DNA of 64,000 nucleotides from a virus. Its lineage: Duplodnaviria > Heunggongvirae > Uroviricota > Caudoviricetes. Both the position numbers and the translations under genes were made by a program. Under the pieces are notes generated by a model, which saw only the letters and a list, made by a program, of their open reading frames with translations, was not told the DNA's origin and searched no databases. Location: the IMG/VR virus record IMGVR_UViG_2609459792_000007; one strand, written 5' to 3'. Below are positions 1 through 56,239 of the stretch, in pieces; position 1 is the stretch's first letter, and each line of letters begins with the position of its first letter.

Positions 1-1160
1 ACTTCATCGGTAAAGATATTGTTTACTTCCACAGCCTGTTCTGGCCTGCCATGCTGGAAGGCAGCAACTTCCGCAAGCCGACCAACCTGTTTGTTCACGG
101 CTATGTGACGGTGAACGGCGCGAAGATGTCCAAGTCTCGCGGCACCTTTATTAAAGCCAGCACCTGGCTGAATCATTTTGACGCCGACAGCCTGCGTTAC
201 TACTACACTGCGAAACTCTCTTCGCGCATTGATGATATCGATCTCAACCTGGAGGATTTCGTTCAGCGCGTGAATGCCGATATCGTGAACAAAGTGGTTA
301 ACCTGGCCTCCCGTAATGCAGGCTTTATCAACAAGCGTTTTGACGGCGTGCTGGCAAGCGAACTGGCTGACCCGCAACTGTACAAAACCTTTACTGATGC
401 CGCTGAAGTGATTGGCGAAGCATGGGAAAGCCGCGAATTTGGTAAAGCTATCCGTGAAATCATGGCATTGGCTGACCTGGCTAACCGCTATGTCGATGAA
501 CAGGCTCCGTGGGTGGTGGCGAAGCAGGAAGGACGCGATGCCGATCTGCAGGCGATTTGCTCTATGGGCATTAACCTGTTCCGCGTGCTGATGACGTACC
601 TGAAGCCGGTACTGCCGAAACTGACTGAACGTGCAGAAGCATTCCTGAATACAGAACTGACCTGGGATGGTATCCAGCAACCGCTGCTGGGCCATAAAGT
701 GAATCCGTTCAAGGCACTGTATAACCGCATCGATATGAAGCAGGTTGAAGCACTGGTGGAAGCATCCAAAGAAGAAGTGAAAGCCACAGCCGCACCGGTA
801 ACTGGCCCACTGGCTGACGACCCGATTCAGGAAACTATCACCTTTGACGACTTCGCCAAAGTTGACCTGCGCGTGGCGCTGATTGAAAACGCAGAGTTTG
901 TAGAAGGTTCTGACAAACTGCTTCGTCTGACGCTGGATCTCGGTGGTGAAAAGCGTAATGTCTTCTCAGGCATCCGTTCCGCTTATCCAGATCCACAGGC
1001 ACTGATTGGTCGTCACACCATTATGGTGGCTAACCTGGCACCACGTAAAATGCGCTTCGGTATCTCCGAAGGCATGGTGATGGCTGCTGGCCCCGGCGGG
1101 AAAGATATCTTCCTGTTAAGCCCGGATGCTGGTGCTAAACCAGGCCACCAGGTTAAGTAA
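1..1160 (+). CDS. metG: methionyl-tRNA synthetase, C-terminal about 385 aa (5' end outside window)
   Basis: Frame is open from position 3; translation ([20 protein letters not shown]...KMSKSRGT...GAKPGHQVK) is recognisable as enterobacterial MetG including the KMSKS motif; stop TAA at 1158-1160. Confidence 0.95.
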
Positions 1161-4768: not shown

Positions 4769-4825
4769 TGCCTTATCTGATTTGTGAAAATGATTTCACT
4801 GAAGCAACTTAATAAGGAAACCATC

Positions 4826-5200
4826 ATGGGACTTGATATCTATATCGAGACGCAGCCTAAAAACGATCTGAATAACGAGGCATCCAGAAAGCAGGTTGCT
4901 TACTTCCGTAAGTTCAATGCGCTCGTTGGGTGGATGGAGCGCAACGTAGGTGAAGTCGAAAATTGTGAGCTTTTAGAATTAACGATGAATGACATTTGTT
5001 TTCTGAAGGCTCATTTGATGCACATAAACGAAAGTAATTGCGAAGAGTACTTGCCTACCCGGGAAGGTTTTTTCTTCGGCAGTCAGGAGTACGATGAAGG
5101 TTACTGGCATGATGTGGGGCAGTTGAAAGAGCTTGTGGAAGATCTGATTAAGAACCACGACTTTCACAATAACAGACTGACCTTCTGCGCCTGGTGGTAA
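4826..5200 (+). CDS. hypothetical protein
   Basis: ATG 4826 with RBS aaggaaac; ORF track start at 4784. Confidence 0.6.
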   Translation: MGLDIYIETQPKNDLNNEASRKQVAYFRKFNALVGWMERNVGEVENCELLELTMNDICFLKAHLMHINESNCEEYLPTREGFFFGSQEYDEGYWHDVGQLKELVEDLIKNHDFHNNRLTFCAWW

Positions 5201-5349: not shown

Positions 5350-5377
5350 TTAAGGCCACCAGCATTGGTGGCCTTAA
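5350..5377 (+). terminator. hairpin terminator, copy 1 of a twin element
   Basis: ttaaggccacca-gcat-tggtggccttaa. Confidence 0.6.
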
Positions 5378-5501
5378 ATGACTTTTAATAACCGAAGGTT
5401 AGTTTGAAACCTGGCTATCAACTTCCAGAACCTTTCTTGTGTATTCAGCCTGTATTAACTTCTTTTATGCCTTATCTACACTGCGATAATTACACCAACA
5501 A

Positions 5502-5518
5502 GAAAACAACATGTTTAC
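5502..5518. promoter_or_regulatory. operator variant GAAAACAACATGTTTAC (family A)
   Basis: Preceded by GATAAT (5485-5490) plus tacaccaac spacer as at 3345 and 5970. Confidence 0.5.
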
Positions 5519-5535
5519 GCAGTGAGGATATGCTC

Positions 5536-5817
5536 ATGACTGATTTCACCATTACCCCTAAAGCACAAAATGTATTCCTTGAATCATGGCTGGACTTGCC
5601 GGAAACAGAACAGCAAGAAATGGATCATGTGGATTATGACGAGCAGGTAAGCACGCGATTCTTCCACTTTGAGGGCTGCGTTTACGACATTGCCGACTTC
5701 ATGCGAGATGACCGCTTCCCTGAATGGCACGCCAGTTATCCACTAAACGCCTTTGCCATGCTGATGATCCGTGTGGATGATTCAGGGGATACCATCGACA
5801 TCGGTCTGCTCCACTAA
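5536..5817 (+). CDS. hypothetical small acidic protein
   Basis: ATG 5536 with RBS gagga 7 nt upstream; D/E-rich. Confidence 0.6.
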   Translation: MTDFTITPKAQNVFLESWLDLPETEQQEMDHVDYDEQVSTRFFHFEGCVYDIADFMRDDRFPEWHASYPLNAFAMLMIRVDDSGDTIDIGLLH

Positions 5818-5820
5818 AGA

Positions 5821-5848
5821 TTAAGGCCACCAATGCTGGTGGCCTTAA
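5821..5848 (+). terminator. hairpin terminator, copy 2 of twin element (loop inverted)
   Basis: ttaaggccacca-atgc-tggtggccttaa; same stem as 5350 with loop gcat changed to atgc. Confidence 0.6.
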
Positions 5849-8870: not shown

Positions 8871-9395
8871 TCAAAAAGGCAAAATTCGTTCAACCCAATC
8901 GAACAAAACAACTATTTTTCTACCGTTCTCGACACGTAGTGTAACCTGACAAGCATCTGCGCCTGCTGACACCCCCTCAATTTCACGGCCATCCGCCATG
9001 TACACCCTTATAGATTTGTTTGCTTTGTAGGCTTGGTTGCAAATTGCAAAAAAATCGCGGCGTGATGGCCGATTATCGACATAATCAGGGTGAACTGTTA
9101 GTCGACCTTTGAAATCGTGAGCGATACTGTCAACCACACCTGATTCAATTGTACTAATGCGTTCAAGTGGGAGCCTTATACGATTTTCTTTGTCAAAAGG
9201 GGCTGGGCAAAGGTCAACTTTGTTACGAGATGGCATGAGGCCATAAACGTACATGCAAAACGCCTGGCCATCTTCGAGAGTGACCCTTACAGGAATTTGT
9301 TCTCTGCGCCAGAACATCAGTAGTTTTTCAACGTTAGTGTAATCTCGCGGCCAGAGTTCAGCTTGGATACCGTAGGTAATATCTTTGGTTGTCAT
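8871..9395 (-). CDS. hypothetical protein
   Basis: ORF; likely start MTTKD at 9395 overlapping upstream stop. Confidence 0.5.
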   Translation of the reverse strand: MTTKDITYGIQAELWPRDYTNVEKLLMFWRREQIPVRVTLEDGQAFCMYVYGLMPSRNKVDLCPAPFDKENRIRLPLERISTIESGVVDSIAHDFKGRLTVHPDYVDNRPSRRDFFAICNQAYKANKSIRVYMADGREIEGVSAGADACQVTLRVENGRKIVVLFDWVERILPF

Positions 9396-9399
9396 GTCA

Positions 9400-9822
9400 T
9401 CACAGAGTTGTTGGCAGAATGTCGATGTCACCAGAATTGCTGGTGAACACCCTGAACGCTTTTGTGTCTCCATTCTTCAGAGTCGTTTCTCGCTCTTGAC
9501 GAGCGGGGTTTAGAGCACATAAACCTGCACCTTCAAGAGATGCACCCACAATTAATTCTCCGGCATTTAAATGGAAAGTCGCTTTTTCGCCTGTAGCCAG
9601 TTTTGCGACAGTTTCGCCATTGATGAAAATGGAAGCATCACATCCAGCTCCTACAAAACCTGTGTCTCTCATTACCACCAACGTAGCTGGCGCTGCGCTT
9701 TGATACTTGAACACTTTGGCCTGCGGTGCTGGTTTGGCGTCATGGATTGATATTGGACGTGATTGGCACGCGGTAAGCATCAACACTGGTAACGTTAGTA
9801 GAGGGAGAAGCGAGTATTTCAT
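9400..9822 (-). CDS. putative lipoprotein
   Basis: MKYSLLPLLTLPVLMLTAC: signal peptide with lipobox LTAC. Confidence 0.6.
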   Translation of the reverse strand: MKYSLLPLLTLPVLMLTACQSRPISIHDAKPAPQAKVFKYQSAAPATLVVMRDTGFVGAGCDASIFINGETVAKLATGEKATFHLNAGELIVGASLEGAGLCALNPARQERETTLKNGDTKAFRVFTSNSGDIDILPTTL

Positions 9823-11777: not shown

Positions 11778-11796
11778 TAAGTAAGTGATTACTTAG
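11778..11796. promoter_or_regulatory. family B motif TAAGTAAGTGATTACTTAG
   Basis: Inverted TAAGTA / TACTTA in divergent intergenic region between helicase and ParB-like genes. Confidence 0.45.
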
Positions 11797-11813
11797 TGGA
11801 TTGTAGCAATAAA

Positions 11814-12494
11814 ATGGATGTAAAAATCACGATTTTGCAGGTTGATGTTGCCAACCTTCGCCCGAATACCTGGAACACCAATTCGGTTGGTGCGCAGAAT
11901 TTTGAAAAACTGAAAGGTTCTATCGAAAAATTGGGCTTTTTTAAGCCAATTTTGGCTCGTGAACTTGAAGATGGATTTTTTGAAATCCTCGGCGGCGAAC
12001 ATCGCTGGCGTGCTGCTATTGAGCAAGGAATTTCAACGGTTCCGGTGCTTTCTGTGGGCAAAATTAGCGATGTCGTAGCTAAACAGATGTCACTGGTGGA
12101 CAACGAGCGATACGGTGAAGACGACCAAATCGCATTGCAACGCTTCATTGAAGAAATTCAGTCAGAACTTGACTATCAACTGTCTGAAATCGCCCCGTAT
12201 GACGACGAAATCTCGATGGTTTTAGCAAAAGAGGCGGCAATCGACCTTGAAGCACTGGAGGCGTTGTCTCGTGGTAGTGATGAGCCTGTCGATACCGACA
12301 AACGAGAGAAAACCGAACGTGTGGGTGCGGAACATCAGACCATGCGCTTCAAAGTAACTTTCGATGCGTCAGATCGTGTTGCAGAAACCATAAAAAACAT
12401 CATCAAAGAGCAGGCTATTAACACCGGTAATGAAATGGAGAACGCTGGTGAGGCTCTGGTGTGGCTGGTCGACTACTACAAGGAGCGTATGTAA
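11814..12494 (+). CDS. ParB N-terminal domain (ParB/Srx-like) protein
   Basis: ILGGEHRWRAA motif typical of ParB-NTD; ATG 11814 (track start 11796). Confidence 0.7.
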   Translation: MDVKITILQVDVANLRPNTWNTNSVGAQNFEKLKGSIEKLGFFKPILARELEDGFFEILGGEHRWRAAIEQGISTVPVLSVGKISDVVAKQMSLVDNERYGEDDQIALQRFIEEIQSELDYQLSEIAPYDDEISMVLAKEAAIDLEALEALSRGSDEPVDTDKREKTERVGAEHQTMRFKVTFDASDRVAETIKNIIKEQAINTGNEMENAGEALVWLVDYYKERM

Positions 12495-13162
12495 TGACCA
12501 AAAAGTTTGAAATCGTATATCGCGACCCGGCAGATCTTATTCCCTATGAGATGAATGCCAAAAAGCATGATGAACAGCAGATCAGAGATCTGGCCGCAGC
12601 CATTAAAAAGCGCGGATTTGACCAGCCAATTACGGTCGATAAGAACGACGTAATTATTACTGGCCACGGCCGCCGTGAGGCTGCAATTTTTGCTGGACTT
12701 GAGCGCGTACCGGTTATTGTTCGCGATGATCTCAGTGATGACGAGGTTCGTGCGAAGCGCCTTGAAGATAACCGACTTGCCAGCATTGATTACGATGCAA
12801 TTAAGCTACAGAAAGAGCTTGAGTCGCTTGTTCTGGACGATATCGAGGTTTTCGGCTTTGAAGAGCGTGAGTTGAATGTTCTCGTTGGCAGTATGACAGA
12901 AGAAATGGACACCGACTCGCTAGTTATCGATCTTGGCGAAGAAACTAAACGACAGAAGGATGAACACACCGAGATCAGTCGTGAAGTTGCAGCGGAAGAA
13001 GTACGTGTTGTCGACGTATTGGGCTTTAAAACGCTCCCTGCTGGCTCTGCCATTGTTGTTGGTGATTTGCTTGCCCATATGGAAGAAATGACGGGAGAAA
13101 GCGGGGTAGACGCATTTGTGGCATATGCGGAGAAGATCTCTTCCGGGGAGATGGCTGCATGA
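12494..13162 (+). CDS. ParB N-terminal domain protein, second copy
   Basis: ITGHGRREAA motif; ATG 12494 overlaps upstream stop (TAATG); RBS aggagcg. Confidence 0.7.
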   Translation: MTKKFEIVYRDPADLIPYEMNAKKHDEQQIRDLAAAIKKRGFDQPITVDKNDVIITGHGRREAAIFAGLERVPVIVRDDLSDDEVRAKRLEDNRLASIDYDAIKLQKELESLVLDDIEVFGFEERELNVLVGSMTEEMDTDSLVIDLGEETKRQKDEHTEISREVAAEEVRVVDVLGFKTLPAGSAIVVGDLLAHMEEMTGESGVDAFVAYAEKISSGEMAA

Positions 13163-15011: not shown

Positions 15012-15066
15012 CCTGCATCTGTATATATAAATAATAAGTAACTTATTAAATATATACGGAAGCAGG
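15012..15066. repeat. 55-bp imperfect palindromic element, copy 1
   Basis: cctgcatctgtatatataaataataagtaacttattaaatatatacggaagcagg; near-identical copy at 47817-47871. Confidence 0.8.
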
Positions 15067-44560: not shown

Positions 44561-44944
44561 ATGCTGAACGAAAAACGTTCTATACAAACAATTCGCGATT
44601 GCACGAGTGTTATCGCAACTCATGTGCTGAATAAGCGCAAACTTGAGGTGCGTAAACTTAACAACGATGCGACTGCGCCAAAAGACACTCGCTTCATCGT
44701 AACTTTCAAAGACGATGTTGAGAATGCTGGTGCCAGTGTAAAACCGTTGGCTGAAGCGATTTTCCTGAACGATCGTGTTCGTTTCATTGTGAAGCCAGCA
44801 AAACAATACCCTGAATTAGCACGGTTTAGTGACCAATTCTCTGAAATTATTGAGAGTGCAATTCGCCGCTTTCTTAATACTCATGGTAGCATTGTCAGCA
44901 ATACAACTGCTGATGGTACTGCTCTAAGATGGCACCTACACTAG
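44561..44944 (+). CDS. hypothetical protein
   Basis: ORF with RBS aaggtggacacATG. Confidence 0.5.
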   Translation: MLNEKRSIQTIRDCTSVIATHVLNKRKLEVRKLNNDATAPKDTRFIVTFKDDVENAGASVKPLAEAIFLNDRVRFIVKPAKQYPELARFSDQFSEIIESAIRRFLNTHGSIVSNTTADGTALRWHLH

Positions 44945-45681
44945 AACGCACATACTCTAAAAATCTTTATGAGTTTCCTCACCGTGGGGAAACTCGCGTT
45001 TCACGTTTTGGCTACCTCATCAACGAAGCATCGCTTTTCAAAATATCTGAAATAACCATTATCGAGCCTGATGATGATATCTGTCTGTATATCCTGATGG
45101 AGAAAGTTGGAGCACGAGATCAGGGTGAACTGATGGACTTCATTCTGGACAGAGGCGAAGATGGAATGTCTGATTCGGACATTATTCAAGCAATTCTGCG
45201 TTCCGACATGCTCGATCAGAGCAGAAACACGATAGCAGGCAGAATTGCATTGCGTGAATACACATTCATCGAGGATGGGGTAGAGATTGACTGCTATCAG
45301 ATTGCAGGTGTTGAAACAGAAAGAGCAATAAGGCAAAGGGGACTGTGCAACCTCACGTATCGCTTCCTCCTTCATTGGTACGAACATCTTGTCTGTGATT
45401 ACAATCAGACCATTCCTGGCGCAAAAATCTGGGCCGGTCCATTAATGCGAACAGGTGATGTAAGAATTTACAACGCAAAAACTGAGACGTTCGAGGATGT
45501 GTTAGGCGAATATGGGATGGGAAAAGAAACCGGCTTTTTGCCGTGGAACAGAGGATTGTTACTTGATCCAGAATTAAGCTCTTGGTTTCCAAATAAGGTG
45601 CAAGTTAACGTTGAGAAATTTATCGTACTTATCATCTCCCGCAAAACAAGAACCCCAGTTGGTTTATATCTAAAAGATTAA
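44929..45681 (+). CDS. hypothetical protein (250 aa)
   Basis: ORF followed by terminator. Confidence 0.55.
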   Translation: MAPTLERTYSKNLYEFPHRGETRVSRFGYLINEASLFKISEITIIEPDDDICLYILMEKVGARDQGELMDFILDRGEDGMSDSDIIQAILRSDMLDQSRNTIAGRIALREYTFIEDGVEIDCYQIAGVETERAIRQRGLCNLTYRFLLHWYEHLVCDYNQTIPGAKIWAGPLMRTGDVRIYNAKTETFEDVLGEYGMGKETGFLPWNRGLLLDPELSSWFPNKVQVNVEKFIVLIISRKTRTPVGLYLKD

Positions 45682-45685
45682 CAAT

Positions 45686-45708
45686 TAGGCGACTTCTGTC
45701 GCCTTTTT
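45686..45708 (+). terminator. rho-independent terminator
   Basis: aggcgac-ttct-gtcgcct followed by tttttt. Confidence 0.8.
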
Positions 45709-45807
45709 TGTTAACAGCCATTGATTCTCGCCTAAAAATTCTAAGGCAGCACCTACCATTTAACCTTTACACAGCAGCCGTAGGCATTTAGGCTATATCA
45801 CATATAA

Positions 45808-45823
45808 GAAAACAAGTTGTTTC
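45808..45823. promoter_or_regulatory. family A operator GAAAACAAGTTGTTTC upstream of partition operon
   Basis: Dyad between promoter-like sequence and RBS of ParA-like gene. Confidence 0.55.
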
Positions 45824-45857
45824 AGACAATAATAATAGACGCAAAGGGAACTCTCCA

Positions 45858-46526
45858 ATGACCAAGATCTTTGTGGTTGGCGGCACAAAGGGCGGGCCTG
45901 GCAAATCCACCGTTGCCCAGCAAATTGCCGTTTGCCTGAAAGTCAAAAAGAAGAAGAAGGTTTATATCACTGATATAGATATTCAGCGCACGACAACAAG
46001 CTGGTGTGAAGACCGTCGACAGAACGAAGACCTTGAGCTGATTCCTTTTGCATACGTTCAGGATGACATCATTAAGCACCTAAAATCGCTTCAGGGTAGA
46101 GCTGAGTTTGTAGTGGTAGATGCTGGTGGCTTTGACTCCGAAATTCAGCGACAAGCGATGCTGATGGCCGACGTTATCATTATCCCGCTTCGTCCTAAGC
46201 GTCGTGATTTGAAATCTCTGCGTGACATCGATCCTATTATCGACAATGTTCGTAATGTAAACGATAAAGTGAAGGTCCGCGCGGTCATGAACCAGTGCCC
46301 GGCTTTGCCATCACAAGTGTCTCGCATTCTGGCGGCTAAAGAGATTGTCGAGACGTTTGGCATCGAGTCTGCGCCAGTCAATCTATATAACCGCAACGTC
46401 TACGATGATGCGGAAGAGTCAGGTCGTTCTATCTTTGAAATGACCGGTAGCGAGCGCGACAAAAAGGCGGAAGCCGAGTTTGAAGAATTTGTAGATTATC
46501 TGTTGAGTCTGGAGGAAGAAGAATAA
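45858..46526 (+). CDS. ParA/MinD-family partition ATPase (small type)
   Basis: Deviant Walker A GGTKGGPGKST; about 220 aa. Confidence 0.8.
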   Translation: MTKIFVVGGTKGGPGKSTVAQQIAVCLKVKKKKKVYITDIDIQRTTTSWCEDRRQNEDLELIPFAYVQDDIIKHLKSLQGRAEFVVVDAGGFDSEIQRQAMLMADVIIIPLRPKRRDLKSLRDIDPIIDNVRNVNDKVKVRAVMNQCPALPSQVSRILAAKEIVETFGIESAPVNLYNRNVYDDAEESGRSIFEMTGSERDKKAEAEFEEFVDYLLSLEEEE

Positions 46527-46885
46527 TGTCCATGAAAATGGGTGACCTAGCAAAGCGCAAAGAGCCTGATGCACCGGCTAAGAACACAACTCCTTTGCGC
46601 CAACCAGTCAGACCACAAGGACGCCCGACTCGTGGCAAAGAGAAAATTAAAAGCCGCACTATGTCACTGGAAGACGAATACTTCGAGCTTCTGGAAATGA
46701 TGAAGTTTATCCCTCGTTTCGAGAAGTTCACCCGCTCTGATGTGATTCGTGCTGCTATTTTCCATCTGGCAGAGAAGTCACCGCAGGAAATCGAGGACAT
46801 CGTGAAACTTAACGAGGCGATCACCGCTGCCGATGTCACGATGCGTACCGATGAAATCAAACGAGAGTTGATGAAGAAAGGTTAA
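46526..46885 (+). CDS. putative partition centromere-binding protein
   Basis: Coupled to ParA-like gene (ATGTCCATG overlap); basic N-terminus and ribbon-helix-helix-like C-terminal half. Confidence 0.5.
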   Translation: MSMKMGDLAKRKEPDAPAKNTTPLRQPVRPQGRPTRGKEKIKSRTMSLEDEYFELLEMMKFIPRFEKFTRSDVIRAAIFHLAEKSPQEIEDIVKLNEAITAADVTMRTDEIKRELMKKG

Positions 46886-46890
46886 AAATC

Positions 46891-46921
46891 ATGCATTGGC
46901 GCGTACATTGCGCCAATGCAT
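46891..46921. repeat. perfect 12-bp inverted repeat atgcattggcgc-N7-gcgccaatgcat
   Basis: Directly downstream of partition operon, between convergent genes. Confidence 0.7.
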
Positions 46922-46937
46922 AACTACAGTGTCAGCT

Positions 46938-47705
46938 TTATGCCGCGCTAACACTATGTTCAGTCCTAACCACCCCAACCTTCACAAAAGGGCTACCGTA
47001 GCTTGGTGGCTTCTTGATTAATTTGCCTACATACAGTTTTCTAATATGCTCATCGGCTATTCTGCCAACAAATTCATATCGTTTTGTGTCGGGGCCAAGA
47101 GCTATATCCCTTGTAAAGTACTGCTGAGAACCGGCTTTGACCCAGCATTCAATCTGATAAACTTCCATTATTAGCCCACCATATGTAGCGTAGGCATATT
47201 TGAGATTCTCGTCTCTTGGAACCTTTGCCCATACGCCACGCGTAGCTTCATATAATGCCAGAGCGGACATTCCTGATTTGTAGGTGCTGTTTAGCAGGAA
47301 GGCAAGACCGGCGTGCTCAGGAGCAATTTCAGTTTCCTCTTGCAGCACTAAGTGATGGTAGGCGTCCAGTGATATTCTGCCCATCATGGAACCACTTCCT
47401 CGAACCTTATTCGTAAGCTCTCCGACCCCCATAAGGTCGATGCATGTCGCCTCAACAAGTTTGGCTGTGGTTTCATCCATACCATGACGAAGAATATCTA
47501 TGCCTAATTTTTTATTAGCCAAAAGTTCTTTGATCCGCATGGATTTGGGAGAGTCATCGGGATACTTGATGTGATCGAGACAACGAGTCGATTTGCCTTT
47601 TCCTATGTAAAACGGTCTTTTCATCTTGTCTTCTGTATCATAGAGACAGTAAACATAGTATTTAGCCTTATCCAAGGATCTCGCGTATACCGATAAATCG
47701 TCCAT
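46938..47705 (-). CDS. GIY-YIG nuclease domain protein
   Basis: N-terminal YYVYCLY ... FYIGKGK motif. Confidence 0.6.
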   Translation of the reverse strand: MDDLSVYARSLDKAKYYVYCLYDTEDKMKRPFYIGKGKSTRCLDHIKYPDDSPKSMRIKELLANKKLGIDILRHGMDETTAKLVEATCIDLMGVGELTNKVRGSGSMMGRISLDAYHHLVLQEETEIAPEHAGLAFLLNSTYKSGMSALALYEATRGVWAKVPRDENLKYAYATYGGLIMEVYQIECWVKAGSQQYFTRDIALGPDTKRYEFVGRIADEHIRKLYVGKLIKKPPSYGSPFVKVGVVRTEHSVSAA

Positions 47706-47816
47706 TATTGCATCTCTTAGCTACTGACTAATGCGTTCTATTTTACACATAAGTTTTTAATCAATTTAACAGGCTCAAAGTGTAGAGCTTCTGGGCGTCT
47801 AAGACGACAAGTTATG

Positions 47817-47871
47817 CCTGCTTCTGTATATATAAATAATAAGTAACTTATTAAATATATACGGAAGCAGG
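47817..47871. repeat. 55-bp imperfect palindromic element, copy 2
   Basis: Identical to copy at 15012 except one base (cctgcTtctg vs cctgcAtctg). Confidence 0.8.
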
Positions 47872-47952
47872 TCTTTTAAAAGACACCACCAGAACAACTC
47901 CCTTCCGTTTCCACTTCCAAAAACTGCCACCAGTCGCTATCATCCGCTCATT

Positions 47953-47976
47953 GTGATAAGTAAGTAACTACCTACC
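47953..47976. promoter_or_regulatory. family B motif GATAAGTAAGTAAC
   Basis: About 25 nt upstream of the 47988 gene. Confidence 0.45.
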
Positions 47977-47987
47977 AGGTGAGCCAC

Positions 47988-48728
47988 ATGAGCCAAATCT
48001 TTTTCGATACCATCGACAACGACCAGTACGACTTCATGACAGAGTGGAATACCGCTGTTATGGACAAGTGGGTCGCTGAAAACATTGGTTTGTCGCGCTG
48101 TAAAGACGAGGCTGAACTCTTCGAGACGAAGTGGTTTGATTACCGCGACATGCATCCTCTCATGGCCACCTGTCTTTTTACGGAGGCATACAAACGTCAG
48201 TACTCAAATATCATGCTGACGCACGGTCGCGAACACTTTGAAACAGCTCCGTTCACCACCGGGTTAAAACGCCTGCCTTATCAGGAGTTGTCGACTGCCA
48301 ATAAAACGTCGCTATGGAAAGCACGCCAGTTTGCGGATCGCTATTGCTGCTCATACGACTATTTTATCTCCACCGTTCTTTCCGCAGCTGCACGACGGCT
48401 GTGGGACAAGCTGCCGCGCCCACAGCATTTATGGCAGCCAGAGCTGGTTGAGATATTCGAAGAGAAATTAGCCAGACGCGCAACAACCCGTCTGGATGAC
48501 TCTCTGGTTAGTTTTAAGCATATGGGAGACATGCAGTTCAACCCGATTCAGGAAAGCTATTTTGAGTGGATTCTGGAGCGTTTACGCGCCATCCCCCGCA
48601 GCAAGCGCATACGCGCAATTTTCTCCGCTATCTGGCTAATGGAAATCGTTCCAGAGCGCCTTATTTCCGCCCACTTTCCAGAAGAACTGGAAGAAGCACG
48701 GCGGTTTATTGATCCCCTATCTAATTAA
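47988..48728 (+). CDS. hypothetical protein upstream of replicative helicase
   Basis: ATG 47988 with RBS aggtgag; position suggests a replication accessory role. Confidence 0.55.
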   Translation: MSQIFFDTIDNDQYDFMTEWNTAVMDKWVAENIGLSRCKDEAELFETKWFDYRDMHPLMATCLFTEAYKRQYSNIMLTHGREHFETAPFTTGLKRLPYQELSTANKTSLWKARQFADRYCCSYDYFISTVLSAAARRLWDKLPRPQHLWQPELVEIFEEKLARRATTRLDDSLVSFKHMGDMQFNPIQESYFEWILERLRAIPRSKRIRAIFSAIWLMEIVPERLISAHFPEELEEARRFIDPLSN

Positions 48729-55681: not shown

Positions 55682-55756
55682 GATGGTGTAGCTCAGCGGT
55701 AGAGCAGTTGGCTGTTAACCAACTGGTCGGTGGTTCGAATCCACCCACCATCGCCA
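55682..55756 (+). tRNA. tRNA-Asn (anticodon GTT)
   Basis: Manual cloverleaf: acceptor gatggtg/caccatc, D arm gctc-agcggta-gagc, anticodon loop ctGTTaa, T loop ttcgaat. Confidence 0.85.
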
Positions 55757-55761
55757 ATTTA

Positions 55762-55848
55762 GGGGAGTTAGTCCGTAGAGGTAGCGGGGTAGACTGTAAA
55801 TCTACTGTCATGGAGACTCGGGTGGTTCGACTCCATCACTCCCCACCA
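55762..55848 (+). tRNA. tRNA-Tyr (anticodon GTA), long variable arm
   Basis: Acceptor ggggagt/actcccc, anticodon stem-loop gtaga-ctGTAaa-tctac, long variable arm, T loop ttcgact, 3' CCA. Confidence 0.7.
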
Positions 55849-55852
55849 AATT

Positions 55853-55928
55853 GCCGGTTTAGCTCAGTTGGTAGAGCGCCTGCCTTGTAAGCAGGATGTC
55901 AGCGGTTCGAGTCCGTTAACCGGCACCA
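55853..55928 (+). tRNA. tRNA-Thr (anticodon TGT)
   Basis: Acceptor gccggtt/aaccggc, D arm gctc-agttggta-gagc, anticodon loop ctTGTaa, T loop ttcgagt, 3' CCA. Confidence 0.8.
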
Positions 55929-56152
55929 ATACAACGATAAGATCATTACGGTTAATCGTCGTTCATGTGCACAATGACTGGTCGAAAGGTAGTGATCTTA
56001 CCGTTGTGGTGGATTCGCAGACTGATGCGATAGCTTTCTTGGATGTTAGGGAAATGCGGCCGCAAATCTTCCCTTTCGCGAGCGGTGATCGTCCGTAGTC
56101 CTAATTGGCTGCACCGTATGCCGGAGATTCAGTACCGGCCACCACAACGGCC

Positions 56153-56239
56153 GGAGAGTAGGGAGCATGGTGCTCAAGCGGTCTTGAAAACCGTCCCATT
56201 GCGCAAGCGATGATGGTTCGATTCCATTACTCTCCGCCA
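56153..56239 (+). tRNA. tRNA-Ser (anticodon TGA), long variable arm
   Basis: Acceptor ggagagt/actctcc, anticodon stem-loop gcggt-ctTGAaa-accgt, long variable arm, T loop ttcgatt, 3' CCA. Confidence 0.7.

What the first reader, a model, noticed from the sequence alone, without database searches (positions are those of the whole stretch)
45808..46921. Plasmid-type partition module with a 12-bp perfect inverted repeat in a chromosome-linked window
A small ParA-like ATPase and a probable ribbon-helix-helix partner sit under a family A operator and are followed by atgcattggcgc-N7-gcgccaatgcat. This argues for an extrachromosomal phage-plasmid lifestyle, which conflicts with the metG linkage at the window start.
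Basis: partly seen in the sequence, partly recalled or inferred. Interest (0 to 1): 0.6.

Follow-up and report, generated by a model that had tools for sequence, protein, structure and literature searches.

The report
Phage-plasmid partition operon with terminator hairpin
This is the ordinary plasmid-partition operon (a small ParA ATPase plus a small DNA-binding partner) of a known SSU5-type phage-plasmid; the 12-bp inverted repeat after it is most likely a transcription-terminator hairpin that came in with a neighbouring anti-phage nuclease gene, not the partition site.

Summary
The sequence features are real. There is a 222-aa ParF-like ParA (45858-46526), an overlapping 119-aa partner (46526-46885), a 'family A' palindrome (45810-45822) in the leader, and a perfect 12-N7-12 inverted repeat (46891-46921). 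The whole window is 97-98% identical to known SSU5-type phage-plasmids (PhiR41_1, CMS-2020a, Cyrano). The par module is found in 774 deposited plasmids. So the episomal reading is right, but it is already known.

The supposed conflict with metG disappears. The metG here is a plasmid-borne paralogue, about 94% identical to the chromosomal gene, with flanks that match only plasmids.

The inverted repeat does not belong to the partition module. It occurs in only 136 of the 774 plasmids, about as many as carry the convergent PD-T4-3/CMoRE-like GIY-YIG gene (135). Relatives whose partner protein is 91-95% identical carry different, unrelated hairpins at the same position. On the minus strand a U-run follows the stem. 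It is most likely a terminator.

The only cis sequence inherited with the gene pair is the 107-bp leader (45751-45857). It is the most conserved part of the module and is the likely promoter, operator and centromere. Family A is a regulon motif of the phage backbone, because it persists in pMT1, which lacks this par system. The partner is probably ribbon-helix-helix, but this is unproven. Interest is low.

The parts
45687..45704 (+). Intrinsic-terminator-like hairpin plus T-run that ends the upstream gene (44929..45681). It marks the 5' limit of the par transcription unit.
45751..45857 (+). Conserved par leader: promoter, operators and the predicted centromere. It is the only non-coding sequence inherited together with the parA-partner pair, and the most conserved stretch of the module.
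   Evidence: Similarity among relatives begins at about 45751. Mean pairwise identity is 0.93-0.98 in the 30-nt windows spanning 45758-45832, against 0.64-0.96 in coding windows.
45766..45771 (+). -35-like hexamer TTTACA of the par promoter (inferred).
   Evidence: A -35-like hexamer, a 17-nt spacer and a TAnnnT -10-like hexamer recur in distant relatives L016, L017, L007 and L008. The consensus scan did not flag it because the -10 is weak.
45781..45794 (+). TAGGC-ATT-TAGGC direct repeat (8-bp period). The second copy is the -10-like hexamer TAGGCT (45789-45794). Candidate binding site for the partner protein; this is inference.
   Evidence: Invariant in all close relatives. CCGTAGGC is also kept in the distant L016 promoter. 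Unique in the window: the only other matches have 3 mismatches, about chance level.
45794..45806 (+). TATAT-CNC-ATATA palindrome around the predicted transcription start. The arms are invariant and the central base varies (A/G/C).
45810..45822 (+). 'Family A' palindrome AAACAAGTTGTTT, an operator-like site of a regulon of the phage backbone. It lies about 15 nt downstream of the -10.
   Evidence: 13 sites in the window against 0.15 expected. Also present before the dnaB-like helicase gene in the four fetched SSU5-backbone loci that reach it (L007, L008, L017, L018). Six sites in pMT1, which lacks this par module.
45858..46526 (+). parA: 222-aa type Ib (ParF-like) Walker-type partition ATPase.
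46526..46885 (+). Partner gene (119 aa, PHROG 5111, no Pfam family), the predicted centromere-binding protein. It has a conserved N-terminal MGDLAKR peptide, a variable linker, a basic arm, a probable ribbon-helix-helix core (IKSRTMS...FTRSDVIRAAI) and two C-terminal helices.
   Evidence: The gene pair with ParA is kept in all distant contexts examined.
46891..46921 (.). Perfect 12-N7-12 inverted repeat between the convergent partner and GIY-YIG genes. Predicted bidirectional terminator or 3'-end hairpin; a U-run follows it on the minus strand.
46938..47705 (-). PD-T4-3/CMoRE-like GIY-YIG nuclease gene, a type IV restriction-like anti-phage cargo. It is not part of the par module but is co-inherited with the inverted repeat.
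   Evidence: Pfam LEM-3_GIY-YIG; PADLOC PD-T4-3 at E 1.3e-23; PDB 9u7u/9u75 at E 2e-15; PMC12923530

Best explanation
Region 45751-46885 is the type Ib-like partition operon of an SSU5-type phage-plasmid. A weak sigma-70-type promoter (TTTACA-17-TAGGCT) drives parA and a translationally coupled 119-aa partner.

By analogy with ParF/ParG, the proposed mechanism (inferred, not shown) is as follows. ATP-bound ParA dimers coat the nucleoid. Partner dimers bind short repeats inside the promoter leader, which would then serve as both centromere and auto-operator. The partner's conserved N-terminal basic peptide stimulates the ParA ATPase, so the roughly five plasmid-prophage copies are spaced out and inherited.

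The leader also carries one copy of the backbone-wide 'family A' operator. This places par, like the replication-helicase operon, under a regulator encoded elsewhere on the phage backbone.

The 12-bp inverted repeat at 46891-46921 is not the centromere. It is a stable hairpin that ends the par transcript and, with its U-run, terminates the convergent PD-T4-3/CMoRE-like defence gene. It arrived with that cargo gene.

What is shown: gene identities, conservation patterns, distribution and hairpin energetics. What is inferred: the binding sites, ATPase stimulation, terminator activity and centromere location.
For: Identity of the element:
- The par region and the window start are 94-98% identical to Escherichia phages PhiR41_1, CMS-2020a and Cyrano.
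- The module is in 774 plasmids.
- Cyrano is an episome at 5.5 copies per chromosome, and its partner gene is transcribed in lysogens.

ParA:
- Deviant Walker A motif and no N-terminal DNA-binding domain.
- Best PDB hits are ParF/ParA of TP228, E 1.2e-10.
- PHROG 164 'ParA-like partition protein', E 4e-51. NCBIfam ParA_partition, E 2e-33.

Partner:
- It always lies directly downstream of a 221-229-aa ParA, even at 31-43% identity.
- Conserved N-terminal G(D/G)L.K peptide and I(K/R)SRT.S.E(D/E)E...(T/S)R(S/T)DV.RAA core.
- Sub-threshold ribbon-helix-helix hits: RHH_1 at E 0.005 and 0.11 in relatives; aCcr1 at E 2e-4.

Leader:
- The most conserved 30-nt windows of the module, nearly invariant from E. 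coli to Klebsiella while the coding sequence is 80-86% identical.
- The promoter geometry is kept in distant relatives.

Inverted repeat as terminator:
- Predicted RNA hairpins of -22.3 and -25.1 kcal/mol, z-scores -4.4 and -6.2, with UUUUU after the minus-strand stem.
- It sits between convergent stop codons (46885 and 46938).
- Unrelated hairpins occupy the same position after the partner stop in Cyrano, SCU175, Enterobacter, Klebsiella and Citrobacter plasmids and in the L016 contig.
- It is present in 136 of 774 module carriers, matching the 135 with the GIY-YIG gene.
- The other perfect hairpins of at least 12 bp in the window are also intergenic.
Against: - No experiment here shows partition activity, DNA binding or termination.
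- The leader has no long array of repeats of the kind seen in TP228 parH, only a two-copy TAGGC repeat and two short palindromes. The centromere could therefore lie elsewhere, for example at the 55-nt palindrome at 47817-47871 or outside the window.
- On the plus strand no U-tract follows the hairpin, so termination of the par transcript may be inefficient.
- The tool's own terminator scan did not list this hairpin.
Confidence: 0.75

Rival explanations
1. The inverted repeat is the centromere (parS) of the ParA/partner system, placed downstream of the operon as in some par loci.
For: It is a perfect 12-bp palindromic pair, unlikely by chance. It lies 5 nt after the partner stop codon. Some type I systems do have downstream centromeres (general knowledge).
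Against: It is absent from 638 of the 774 plasmids with the same module. It is also absent from Cyrano, SSU5, pSTM_Phi and Klebsiella relatives, whose partner proteins are 91-95% identical in the loci measured (SSU5, pSTM_Phi, pPMK1-B) and should recognise the same DNA. Those relatives have unrelated hairpins, or none, at that position. It is a single copy with no related site in the window. It co-varies with the GIY-YIG gene instead.
Confidence: 0.04
2. The partner protein is itself the binder of the 'family A' palindromes. It would be an omega-like (pSM19035) or N15 SopB-like global regulator, and the 13 or more dispersed operator sites would double as centromeres.
For: The par leader contains a family A site. 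The sites are 6-1-6 palindromes, equivalent to two inverted 7-bp units, a geometry compatible with paired ribbon-helix-helix dimers (inference). Precedents for dispersed centromere/operator sites are pSM19035 omega and N15 (general knowledge).
Against: pMT1 has no homologue of ParA or the partner (tblastn E > 0.7) yet keeps 6 family A sites against 0.2 expected. In the homologous site pairs I compared by eye, the arms are conserved while the central base and the downstream leader have diverged. The par module in a context that does not look SSU5-like (L016) keeps the same promoter and a near-identical beta-strand motif (IRSRTFSLEDE) but has no family A site. An FljA-like repressor conserved in pMT1 (78% identity) is an alternative binder.
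Confidence: 0.08
3. The inverted repeat is primarily a recombination or insertion structure, a boundary hairpin of a mobile PD-T4-3 cassette, rather than a terminator.
For: It co-occurs closely with the GIY-YIG gene (135 versus 136 records). It lies exactly where similarity to cassette-free relatives breaks. Its 7-nt loop is found in both orientations among plasmids: L011 carries it flipped, and 53 records score in the same identity band as that variant.
Against: No transposase or integrase lies next to it. Other cargo genes in the same slot bring their own different hairpins, and several of these are followed by T-runs typical of terminators. The U-run on the minus strand fits a terminator for the GIY-YIG gene. 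The two roles are not mutually exclusive.
Confidence: 0.1
4. The ParA/partner pair does not segregate the plasmid prophage but has another positioning or regulatory role, and stable inheritance relies on copy number and toxin-antitoxin systems.
For: Copy number is about 5.5. Relatives carry toxin-antitoxin modules next to the locus, such as KacT and its antitoxin in Cyrano. The best Pfam hit is MipZ, a non-partition ParA relative.
Against: The module sits next to the replication genes and is kept in 774 plasmids across five genera. When it is absent, as in pMT1, a classical type Ia ParAB is present instead. Its closest structural relatives are partition ATPases.
Confidence: 0.05

Closest known systems
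parFGH of plasmid TP228 (type Ib partition: ParF ATPase, ParG ribbon-helix-helix protein, parH centromere/operator upstream)
   Same: A small ParA without an N-terminal DNA-binding domain, whose closest solved relative is ParF (E 1.2e-10). A small downstream partner with a flexible basic N-terminus and a probable ribbon-helix-helix core. The only co-inherited cis region is upstream and overlaps the promoter.
   Different: The partner has no detectable sequence similarity to ParG (hhalign probability 0.1). It is longer (119 versus 76 aa), with a 10-residue loop between the two core helices and two extra C-terminal helices. The leader has no array of tetramer boxes like the one recalled for parH, only a two-copy TAGGC repeat. 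An additional operator of a phage-wide regulon sits in the leader.
Partition locus annotated in Salmonella phage SSU5 / pHCM2 / Escherichia phage Cyrano (SSU5 supergroup of phage-plasmids)
   Same: The same genes in the same order and position, between the lysis genes and the dnaB-like helicase, at 80-98% nucleotide identity. ParA is already annotated there.
   Different: The partner is left as 'hypothetical' or mislabelled 'RelE/ParE putative toxin' in those records. The cargo gene and hairpin downstream differ between members.
delta/omega of pSM19035 and sopAB of phage-plasmid N15 (partition proteins that also act as global regulators at dispersed sites)
   Same: A partition operon embedded in a wider regulatory network of the element, with operator-like palindromes at many promoters.
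   Different: Here the dispersed sites persist in pMT1, which has no partner protein, so they most likely belong to another regulator.
Intrinsic (rho-independent) terminators between convergent genes
   Same: A stable GC-containing stem of 12-16 bp with a 5-7-nt loop, placed immediately after two convergent stop codons, with a U-run on one side. Sequence-unrelated hairpins sit at the same place in relatives.
   Different: There is no U-tract on the plus (par) strand. The stem is longer and more perfect than typical. The loop occurs in both orientations in the population.

Membership tests
Type Ib ParA (ParF-like small partition ATPases) | Deviant Walker A motif KGGxxK[ST] with the signature lysine | tested here: met
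   Residues 11-18, KGGPGKST, in MTKIFVVGGTKGGPGKST. Conserved in all relatives.
Type Ib ParA (ParF-like small partition ATPases) | About 200-230 aa with no N-terminal helix-turn-helix or regulatory domain | tested here: met
   222 aa. The Walker A motif starts at residue 8, and the Pfam domains begin at residue 2-4.
Type Ib ParA (ParF-like small partition ATPases) | Sequence homology to characterised members | tested here: met
   ParF 4dzz and TP228 ParA 5u1g at E 1.2e-10 over residues 9-200. NCBIfam ParA_partition at E 1.9e-33, but 115.7 bits is below the curated 180-bit cutoff.
Type Ib ParA (ParF-like small partition ATPases) | ATP-dependent nucleoid binding, and ATPase stimulated by the partner | not testable with these tools
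   Needs biochemistry.
ParG family (Pfam ParG; TP228 ParG) | Detectable sequence or profile similarity to ParG | tested here: not met
   hhalign of the 16-sequence profile against ParG gives probability 0.1; the ParG sequence was checked against PDB 1p94. No Pfam hit.
Ribbon-helix-helix (MetJ/Arc/CopG) DNA-binding proteins | Beta-strand, helix, helix core that matches ribbon-helix-helix profiles or structures | tested here: inconclusive
Complete partition locus (ATPase + centromere-binding protein + centromere) | A cis-acting centromere with repeated binding sites linked to the genes | tested here: inconclusive
   The conserved 107-bp leader contains a TAGGC direct repeat and two palindromes. 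No array is evident and no binding data exist. The downstream inverted repeat is rejected on its distribution.
SSU5 supergroup phage-plasmids | Collinear nucleotide similarity to SSU5-type genomes recovered as about 100-120-kb plasmids or phages | tested here: met
   94-98% identity to PhiR41_1, CMS-2020a and Cyrano at both the window start and the par region. 774 plasmid records carry the module. Classification of the group follows PMC7969092.
Intrinsic terminator | A stable stem-loop immediately followed by a U-run, at a gene 3' end | tested here: met
   Minus strand: -25.1 kcal/mol with the stem followed by UUUUU. Plus strand: -22.3 kcal/mol with no U-run. The consensus scan did not flag it. 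Termination activity itself was not tested.
PD-T4-3 / CMoRE type IV restriction endonuclease (neighbouring gene) | Full-length profile match and a GIY-YIG domain | tested here: met
   PADLOC PD-T4-3 at E 1.3e-23 over residues 11-231. PDB 9u7u at E 2e-15 over 12-230. Pfam LEM-3_GIY-YIG. Specificity for modified cytosine was not tested.

The most novel reading that the evidence does not exclude
The 119-aa partner (PHROG 5111) may found a previously unrecognised family of centromere-binding proteins. The family is confined to SSU5-like phage-plasmids and a few relatives: only 18-25 clusters among billions of proteins. Its centromere would be compressed into the promoter itself. Its operon would be co-regulated with replication genes through the phage-wide family A operator, so that partition is switched together with the lysogeny/lysis programme. 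A bolder version is that the partner itself binds all the family A sites, as an omega-like global regulator.
Probability: 0.3. Interest if true: 0.4.

Novelty: new member of a known kind. Interest (0 to 1): 0.2.

Why it matters
SSU5-type phage-plasmids are widespread in clinical E. coli, Salmonella, Shigella and Klebsiella. Knowing which sequence is really needed for their stable inheritance matters for curing them, for typing them, and for understanding how they persist.

This analysis removes a false lead (the inverted repeat) and a false paradox (metG). It re-labels a gene annotated as a toxin as the probable centromere-binding partner. It points experiments at a 107-bp leader. Beyond that, the locus is an ordinary member of a well-known class.

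Tried and rejected
- Inverted repeat as centromere: rejected on its distribution and on its replacement by unrelated hairpins.
- Partner as the family A binder: weighed and made unlikely by pMT1 and L016.
- Chromosomal linkage through metG: rejected.
- Partner as a RelE/ParE toxin, as annotated in Cyrano: no Pfam support, so unlikely.
- Partner as a ParG homologue: hhalign negative.
- Rfam scan of 45500-48000: nothing.
- 55-nt palindrome at 47817-47871 as centromere: considered. Its second copy, at 15012-15066, is kept in pMT1 without this par system. Left undecided.
- A common repeat motif in the leaders of distant relatives (L016-L020): none found convincingly.

Full report
**What is in the sequence**

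Between a terminator-like hairpin at 45687-45704 and the convergent gene at 46938..47705 lie two overlapping plus-strand ORFs: 45858..46526 (222 aa) and 46526..46885 (119 aa).

The first ORF is a small Walker-type ATPase. It carries the deviant Walker A motif GGTKGGPGKST. It matches Pfam MipZ, AAA_31, CbiA and ParA, PHROG 164 'ParA-like partition protein' (E 4e-51) and NCBIfam ParA_partition (E 2e-33, below the curated cutoff). Its closest solved relatives are ParF/ParA of plasmid TP228 (E 1.2e-10).

ATGCATTGGCGC lies at 46891-46902, its perfect complement lies at 46910-46921, and the spacer is 7 nt. The 'family A operator' is also real. AAACAAGTTGTTT at 45810-45822 is one of 13 sites with at most one mismatch in the window, against 0.15 expected.

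**What the window is**

The par region and the first 12 kb of the window are 94-98% identical to Escherichia phages PhiR41_1, CMS-2020a and Cyrano, and 80-86% identical to Salmonella phage SSU5 and to Klebsiella phage-plasmids. These belong to the SSU5 supergroup of phage-plasmids (PMC7969092).

The par module alone matches 774 PLSDB plasmids. They are mostly about 100-120 kb and non-mobilizable, and come from Klebsiella, Escherichia, Enterobacter, Salmonella and Citrobacter. Cyrano has been shown to be an episome at about 5.5 copies per chromosome that produces virions. The gene homologous to the 119-aa ORF is transcribed in its lysogens (PMC9928086). The extrachromosomal lifestyle is therefore correct, but already known.

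**The metG 'conflict'**

The truncated ORF at the window start is a methionyl-tRNA synthetase. The same gene is annotated in Cyrano and PhiR41_1.

Against all complete E. coli genomes, 215 records match at 95% identity or more. This fits the 220 places found on plasmids, and the best listed hit is a 107-kb plasmid covering the gene and its 3' flank. The 5424 chromosomal places score 90-95% (93-94.7% in the listed rows), and in the listed rows they stop at nt 1161, the end of the gene. This metG is a captured paralogue carried by the phage-plasmid. There is no chromosomal linkage and no paradox.

**The inverted repeat**

Six observations argue that it is not the centromere.

- In alignments, similarity to Cyrano, CMS-2020a SCU175, SSU5 and the Klebsiella phage breaks immediately after the partner's stop codon. 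Only relatives that carry the minus-strand GIY-YIG gene share the repeat.
- The repeat is present in 136 plasmid records, against 774 with the par module and 135 with the GIY-YIG region.
- Relatives whose partner protein is 91-95% identical should have the same DNA specificity. Yet they carry different hairpins at the same place. Cyrano has GAAGGCGT-N6-ACGCCTTC. SCU175 has TTGGGCGT-N5-ACGCCCAA. Enterobacter and Klebsiella plasmids have AGGCGTC-N4-GACGCCT followed by TTT. A Citrobacter plasmid has AGGCGC-N6-GCGCCT followed by TTTT. The distant L016 contig has AAGCGCC-N5-GGCGCTT followed by a T-rich run. The position and the structure are conserved, but the sequence is not, which is how terminators behave.
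- As RNA the repeat folds at -22.3 kcal/mol on the plus strand and -25.1 kcal/mol on the minus strand, with z-scores of -4.4 and -6.2. On the minus strand UUUUU follows the stem. That fits an intrinsic terminator for the GIY-YIG gene and a 3'-end hairpin for the par transcript.
- The repeat has no second copy or relative anywhere in the window.
- It is one of four perfect hairpin repeats of at least 12 bp in the window, against 0.11 hits per shuffle. The others also lie between genes.

One curiosity: in pCUVET18-789.1 the 7-nt loop is flipped (aatgtac instead of gtacatt). A further 53 of the 136 records score in the identity band of that variant.

**The neighbouring gene**

ORF 46938..47705 matches the single-gene defence system PD-T4-3 (PADLOC E 1.3e-23). 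It also matches the solved CMoRE structures 9u7u and 9u75 (E 2e-15). CMoRE is a GIY-YIG type IV restriction enzyme that acts on 5hmC- or glucosyl-5hmC-modified DNA (PMC12923530).

The slot between the partner's stop codon and a conserved 55-nt palindrome (47817-47871) holds different cargo in different relatives. It holds DUF2971 proteins in SSU5 and in the Enterobacter, Citrobacter and Klebsiella plasmids, and other ORFs in Cyrano. In pSTM_Phi it is empty.

**The partner protein**

It has no Pfam family and belongs to PHROG 5111, of unknown function. It has very few relatives: 25 hits in the 5.8-billion-sequence collection, and 18 cluster representatives in an exhaustive HMM search.

In all the distant contexts recovered (31-43% identity), its gene lies directly after a 221-229-aa ParA.

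Alignments show four parts:
- a conserved N-terminal G(D/G)L.K(K/R) peptide;
- a variable linker;
- a basic arm;
- an invariant-rich core, I(K/R)SRT.S.E(D/E)E...(T/S)R(S/T)DV.RAA.

**Where the cis site probably is**

Similarity among relatives starts at about 45751, whatever lies upstream. The leader from 45758 to 45832 is the most conserved part of the module. Mean pairwise identity there is 0.93-0.98, against 0.64-0.96 in coding windows. It is nearly invariant from E. coli to Klebsiella, although the genes are only 80% identical.

A promoter geometry recurs in distant relatives: TTTACA (45766-45771), a 17-nt spacer, then TAGGCT (45789-45794). Inside it lie a TAGGC-ATT-TAGGC direct repeat with an 8-bp period and a TATAT-CNC-ATATA palindrome. 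The family A site follows.

By analogy with type Ib loci such as TP228 parFGH, where the centromere/operator lies upstream, I predict that the partner binds here and that this leader is both operator and centromere. This is inference, and I put it at about 50% confidence. The leader lacks a long repeat array, so other locations cannot be excluded. These include the 55-nt palindrome (47817-47871, duplicated at 15012-15066) and sequence outside the window.

**Family A**

The palindrome sits about 13-15 nt after -10-like boxes at many promoters. In the four fetched SSU5-backbone loci that reach it (L007, L008, L017, L018), it also precedes the dnaB-like helicase operon.

It is unlikely to be the partner's own site, for two reasons.

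- Yersinia pestis pMT1 has a type Ia ParAB and no homologue of this ParA or partner (tblastn E > 0.7). It still has six sites, against 0.2 expected. In the homologous site pairs I compared by eye, the arms are conserved while the central base and the adjacent leader have diverged.
- The par module in a context that does not look SSU5-like (L016) keeps the promoter but lacks the palindrome.

An FljA-like repressor (8871..9473) is 78% conserved in pMT1 and is a candidate binder. This was not tested. Par expression thus appears tied to a regulon of the phage backbone.

**Verdict**

The metG conflict is spurious. The inverted repeat is most likely a terminator hairpin that travels with a defence-gene cargo, not part of the partition machinery.

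The locus is a new, unannotated-partner member of the well-known type Ib class. Interest is low. The only mildly novel points are the orphan partner family, the compact promoter-embedded cis region, and the link to a phage-wide operator family.

Noticed in passing
window 1-1160: A plasmid-borne metG (MetRS) paralogue, about 94% identical to chromosomal E. coli metG. Matches of at least 95% number 215 records, in line with the 220 places found on plasmids, and the best listed hit is a 107-kb plasmid. It looks like a host gene captured by this phage-plasmid lineage.
   Followed up: partly
window 1245, 1296, 2182, 3367, 3851, 4754, 5504, 5989, 15105, 15130, 45810, 48740, 59279: The 'family A' palindrome AAACAA-N-TTGTTT occurs at 13 promoter-proximal sites, against 0.15 expected. 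Many share an upstream ...GATAAT..ACACCAACAAGA context. The motif is conserved in pMT1. The binder is unknown; an FljA-like repressor (8871..9473, minus strand) is a candidate.
   Followed up: partly
window 47817-47871 and 15012-15066: A 55-nt AT-rich palindrome flanked by CTGCTTC/GAAGCAG is present twice at 98% identity. One copy lies between the par/cargo slot and the replication genes, the other upstream of the packaging genes. pMT1 keeps only the packaging-side copy. Function unknown; origin, terminator or protein-binding site are possibilities.
   Followed up: partly
window 46938-47705 (minus strand): A PD-T4-3/CMoRE-like GIY-YIG type IV restriction gene is carried as cargo next to par. 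The same slot holds DUF2971 or other genes in relatives and is empty in pSTM_Phi, so it is a cargo hotspot.
   Followed up: partly
L011 2638-2668 (pCUVET18-789.1) versus window 46891-46921: The 7-nt loop of the hairpin is inverted (aatgtac versus gtacatt) between identical arms. 53 of the 136 plasmids score in the identity band of this variant. This suggests loop inversion by recombination or template switching within the palindrome.
   Followed up: partly
window 5350-5377 and 5821-5848: The same perfect hairpin, TTAAGGCCACCA-N4-TGGTGGCCTTAA, occurs twice, 471 nt apart, in the array of small genes. The second copy starts 4 nt after the end of ORF 5404..5817; the first lies between ORFs 4784..5200 and 5404..5817.
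   Followed up: no
window 55682-56239: A cluster of four tRNA genes (Asn-GTT, Tyr-GTA, Thr-TGT, Ser-TGA) on the phage-plasmid.
   Followed up: no
L002 6776-7135 (Cyrano CYRAN_29): The homologue of the ParA partner is annotated 'RelE/ParE putative toxin' in the Cyrano record and counted as a moron/toxin in PMC9928086. No RelE/ParE signal was found, so this is probably a mis-annotation.
   Followed up: yes
window 11796-13162: Two adjacent ORFs lie next to an ABC-type ATPase gene and upstream of the packaging genes. The second (12461..13162) has a ParB N-terminal domain, and both homologues are annotated as such in pMT1. They are unrelated to the ParA partner and are conserved in pMT1, so they are probably not the partition ParB.
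   Followed up: no
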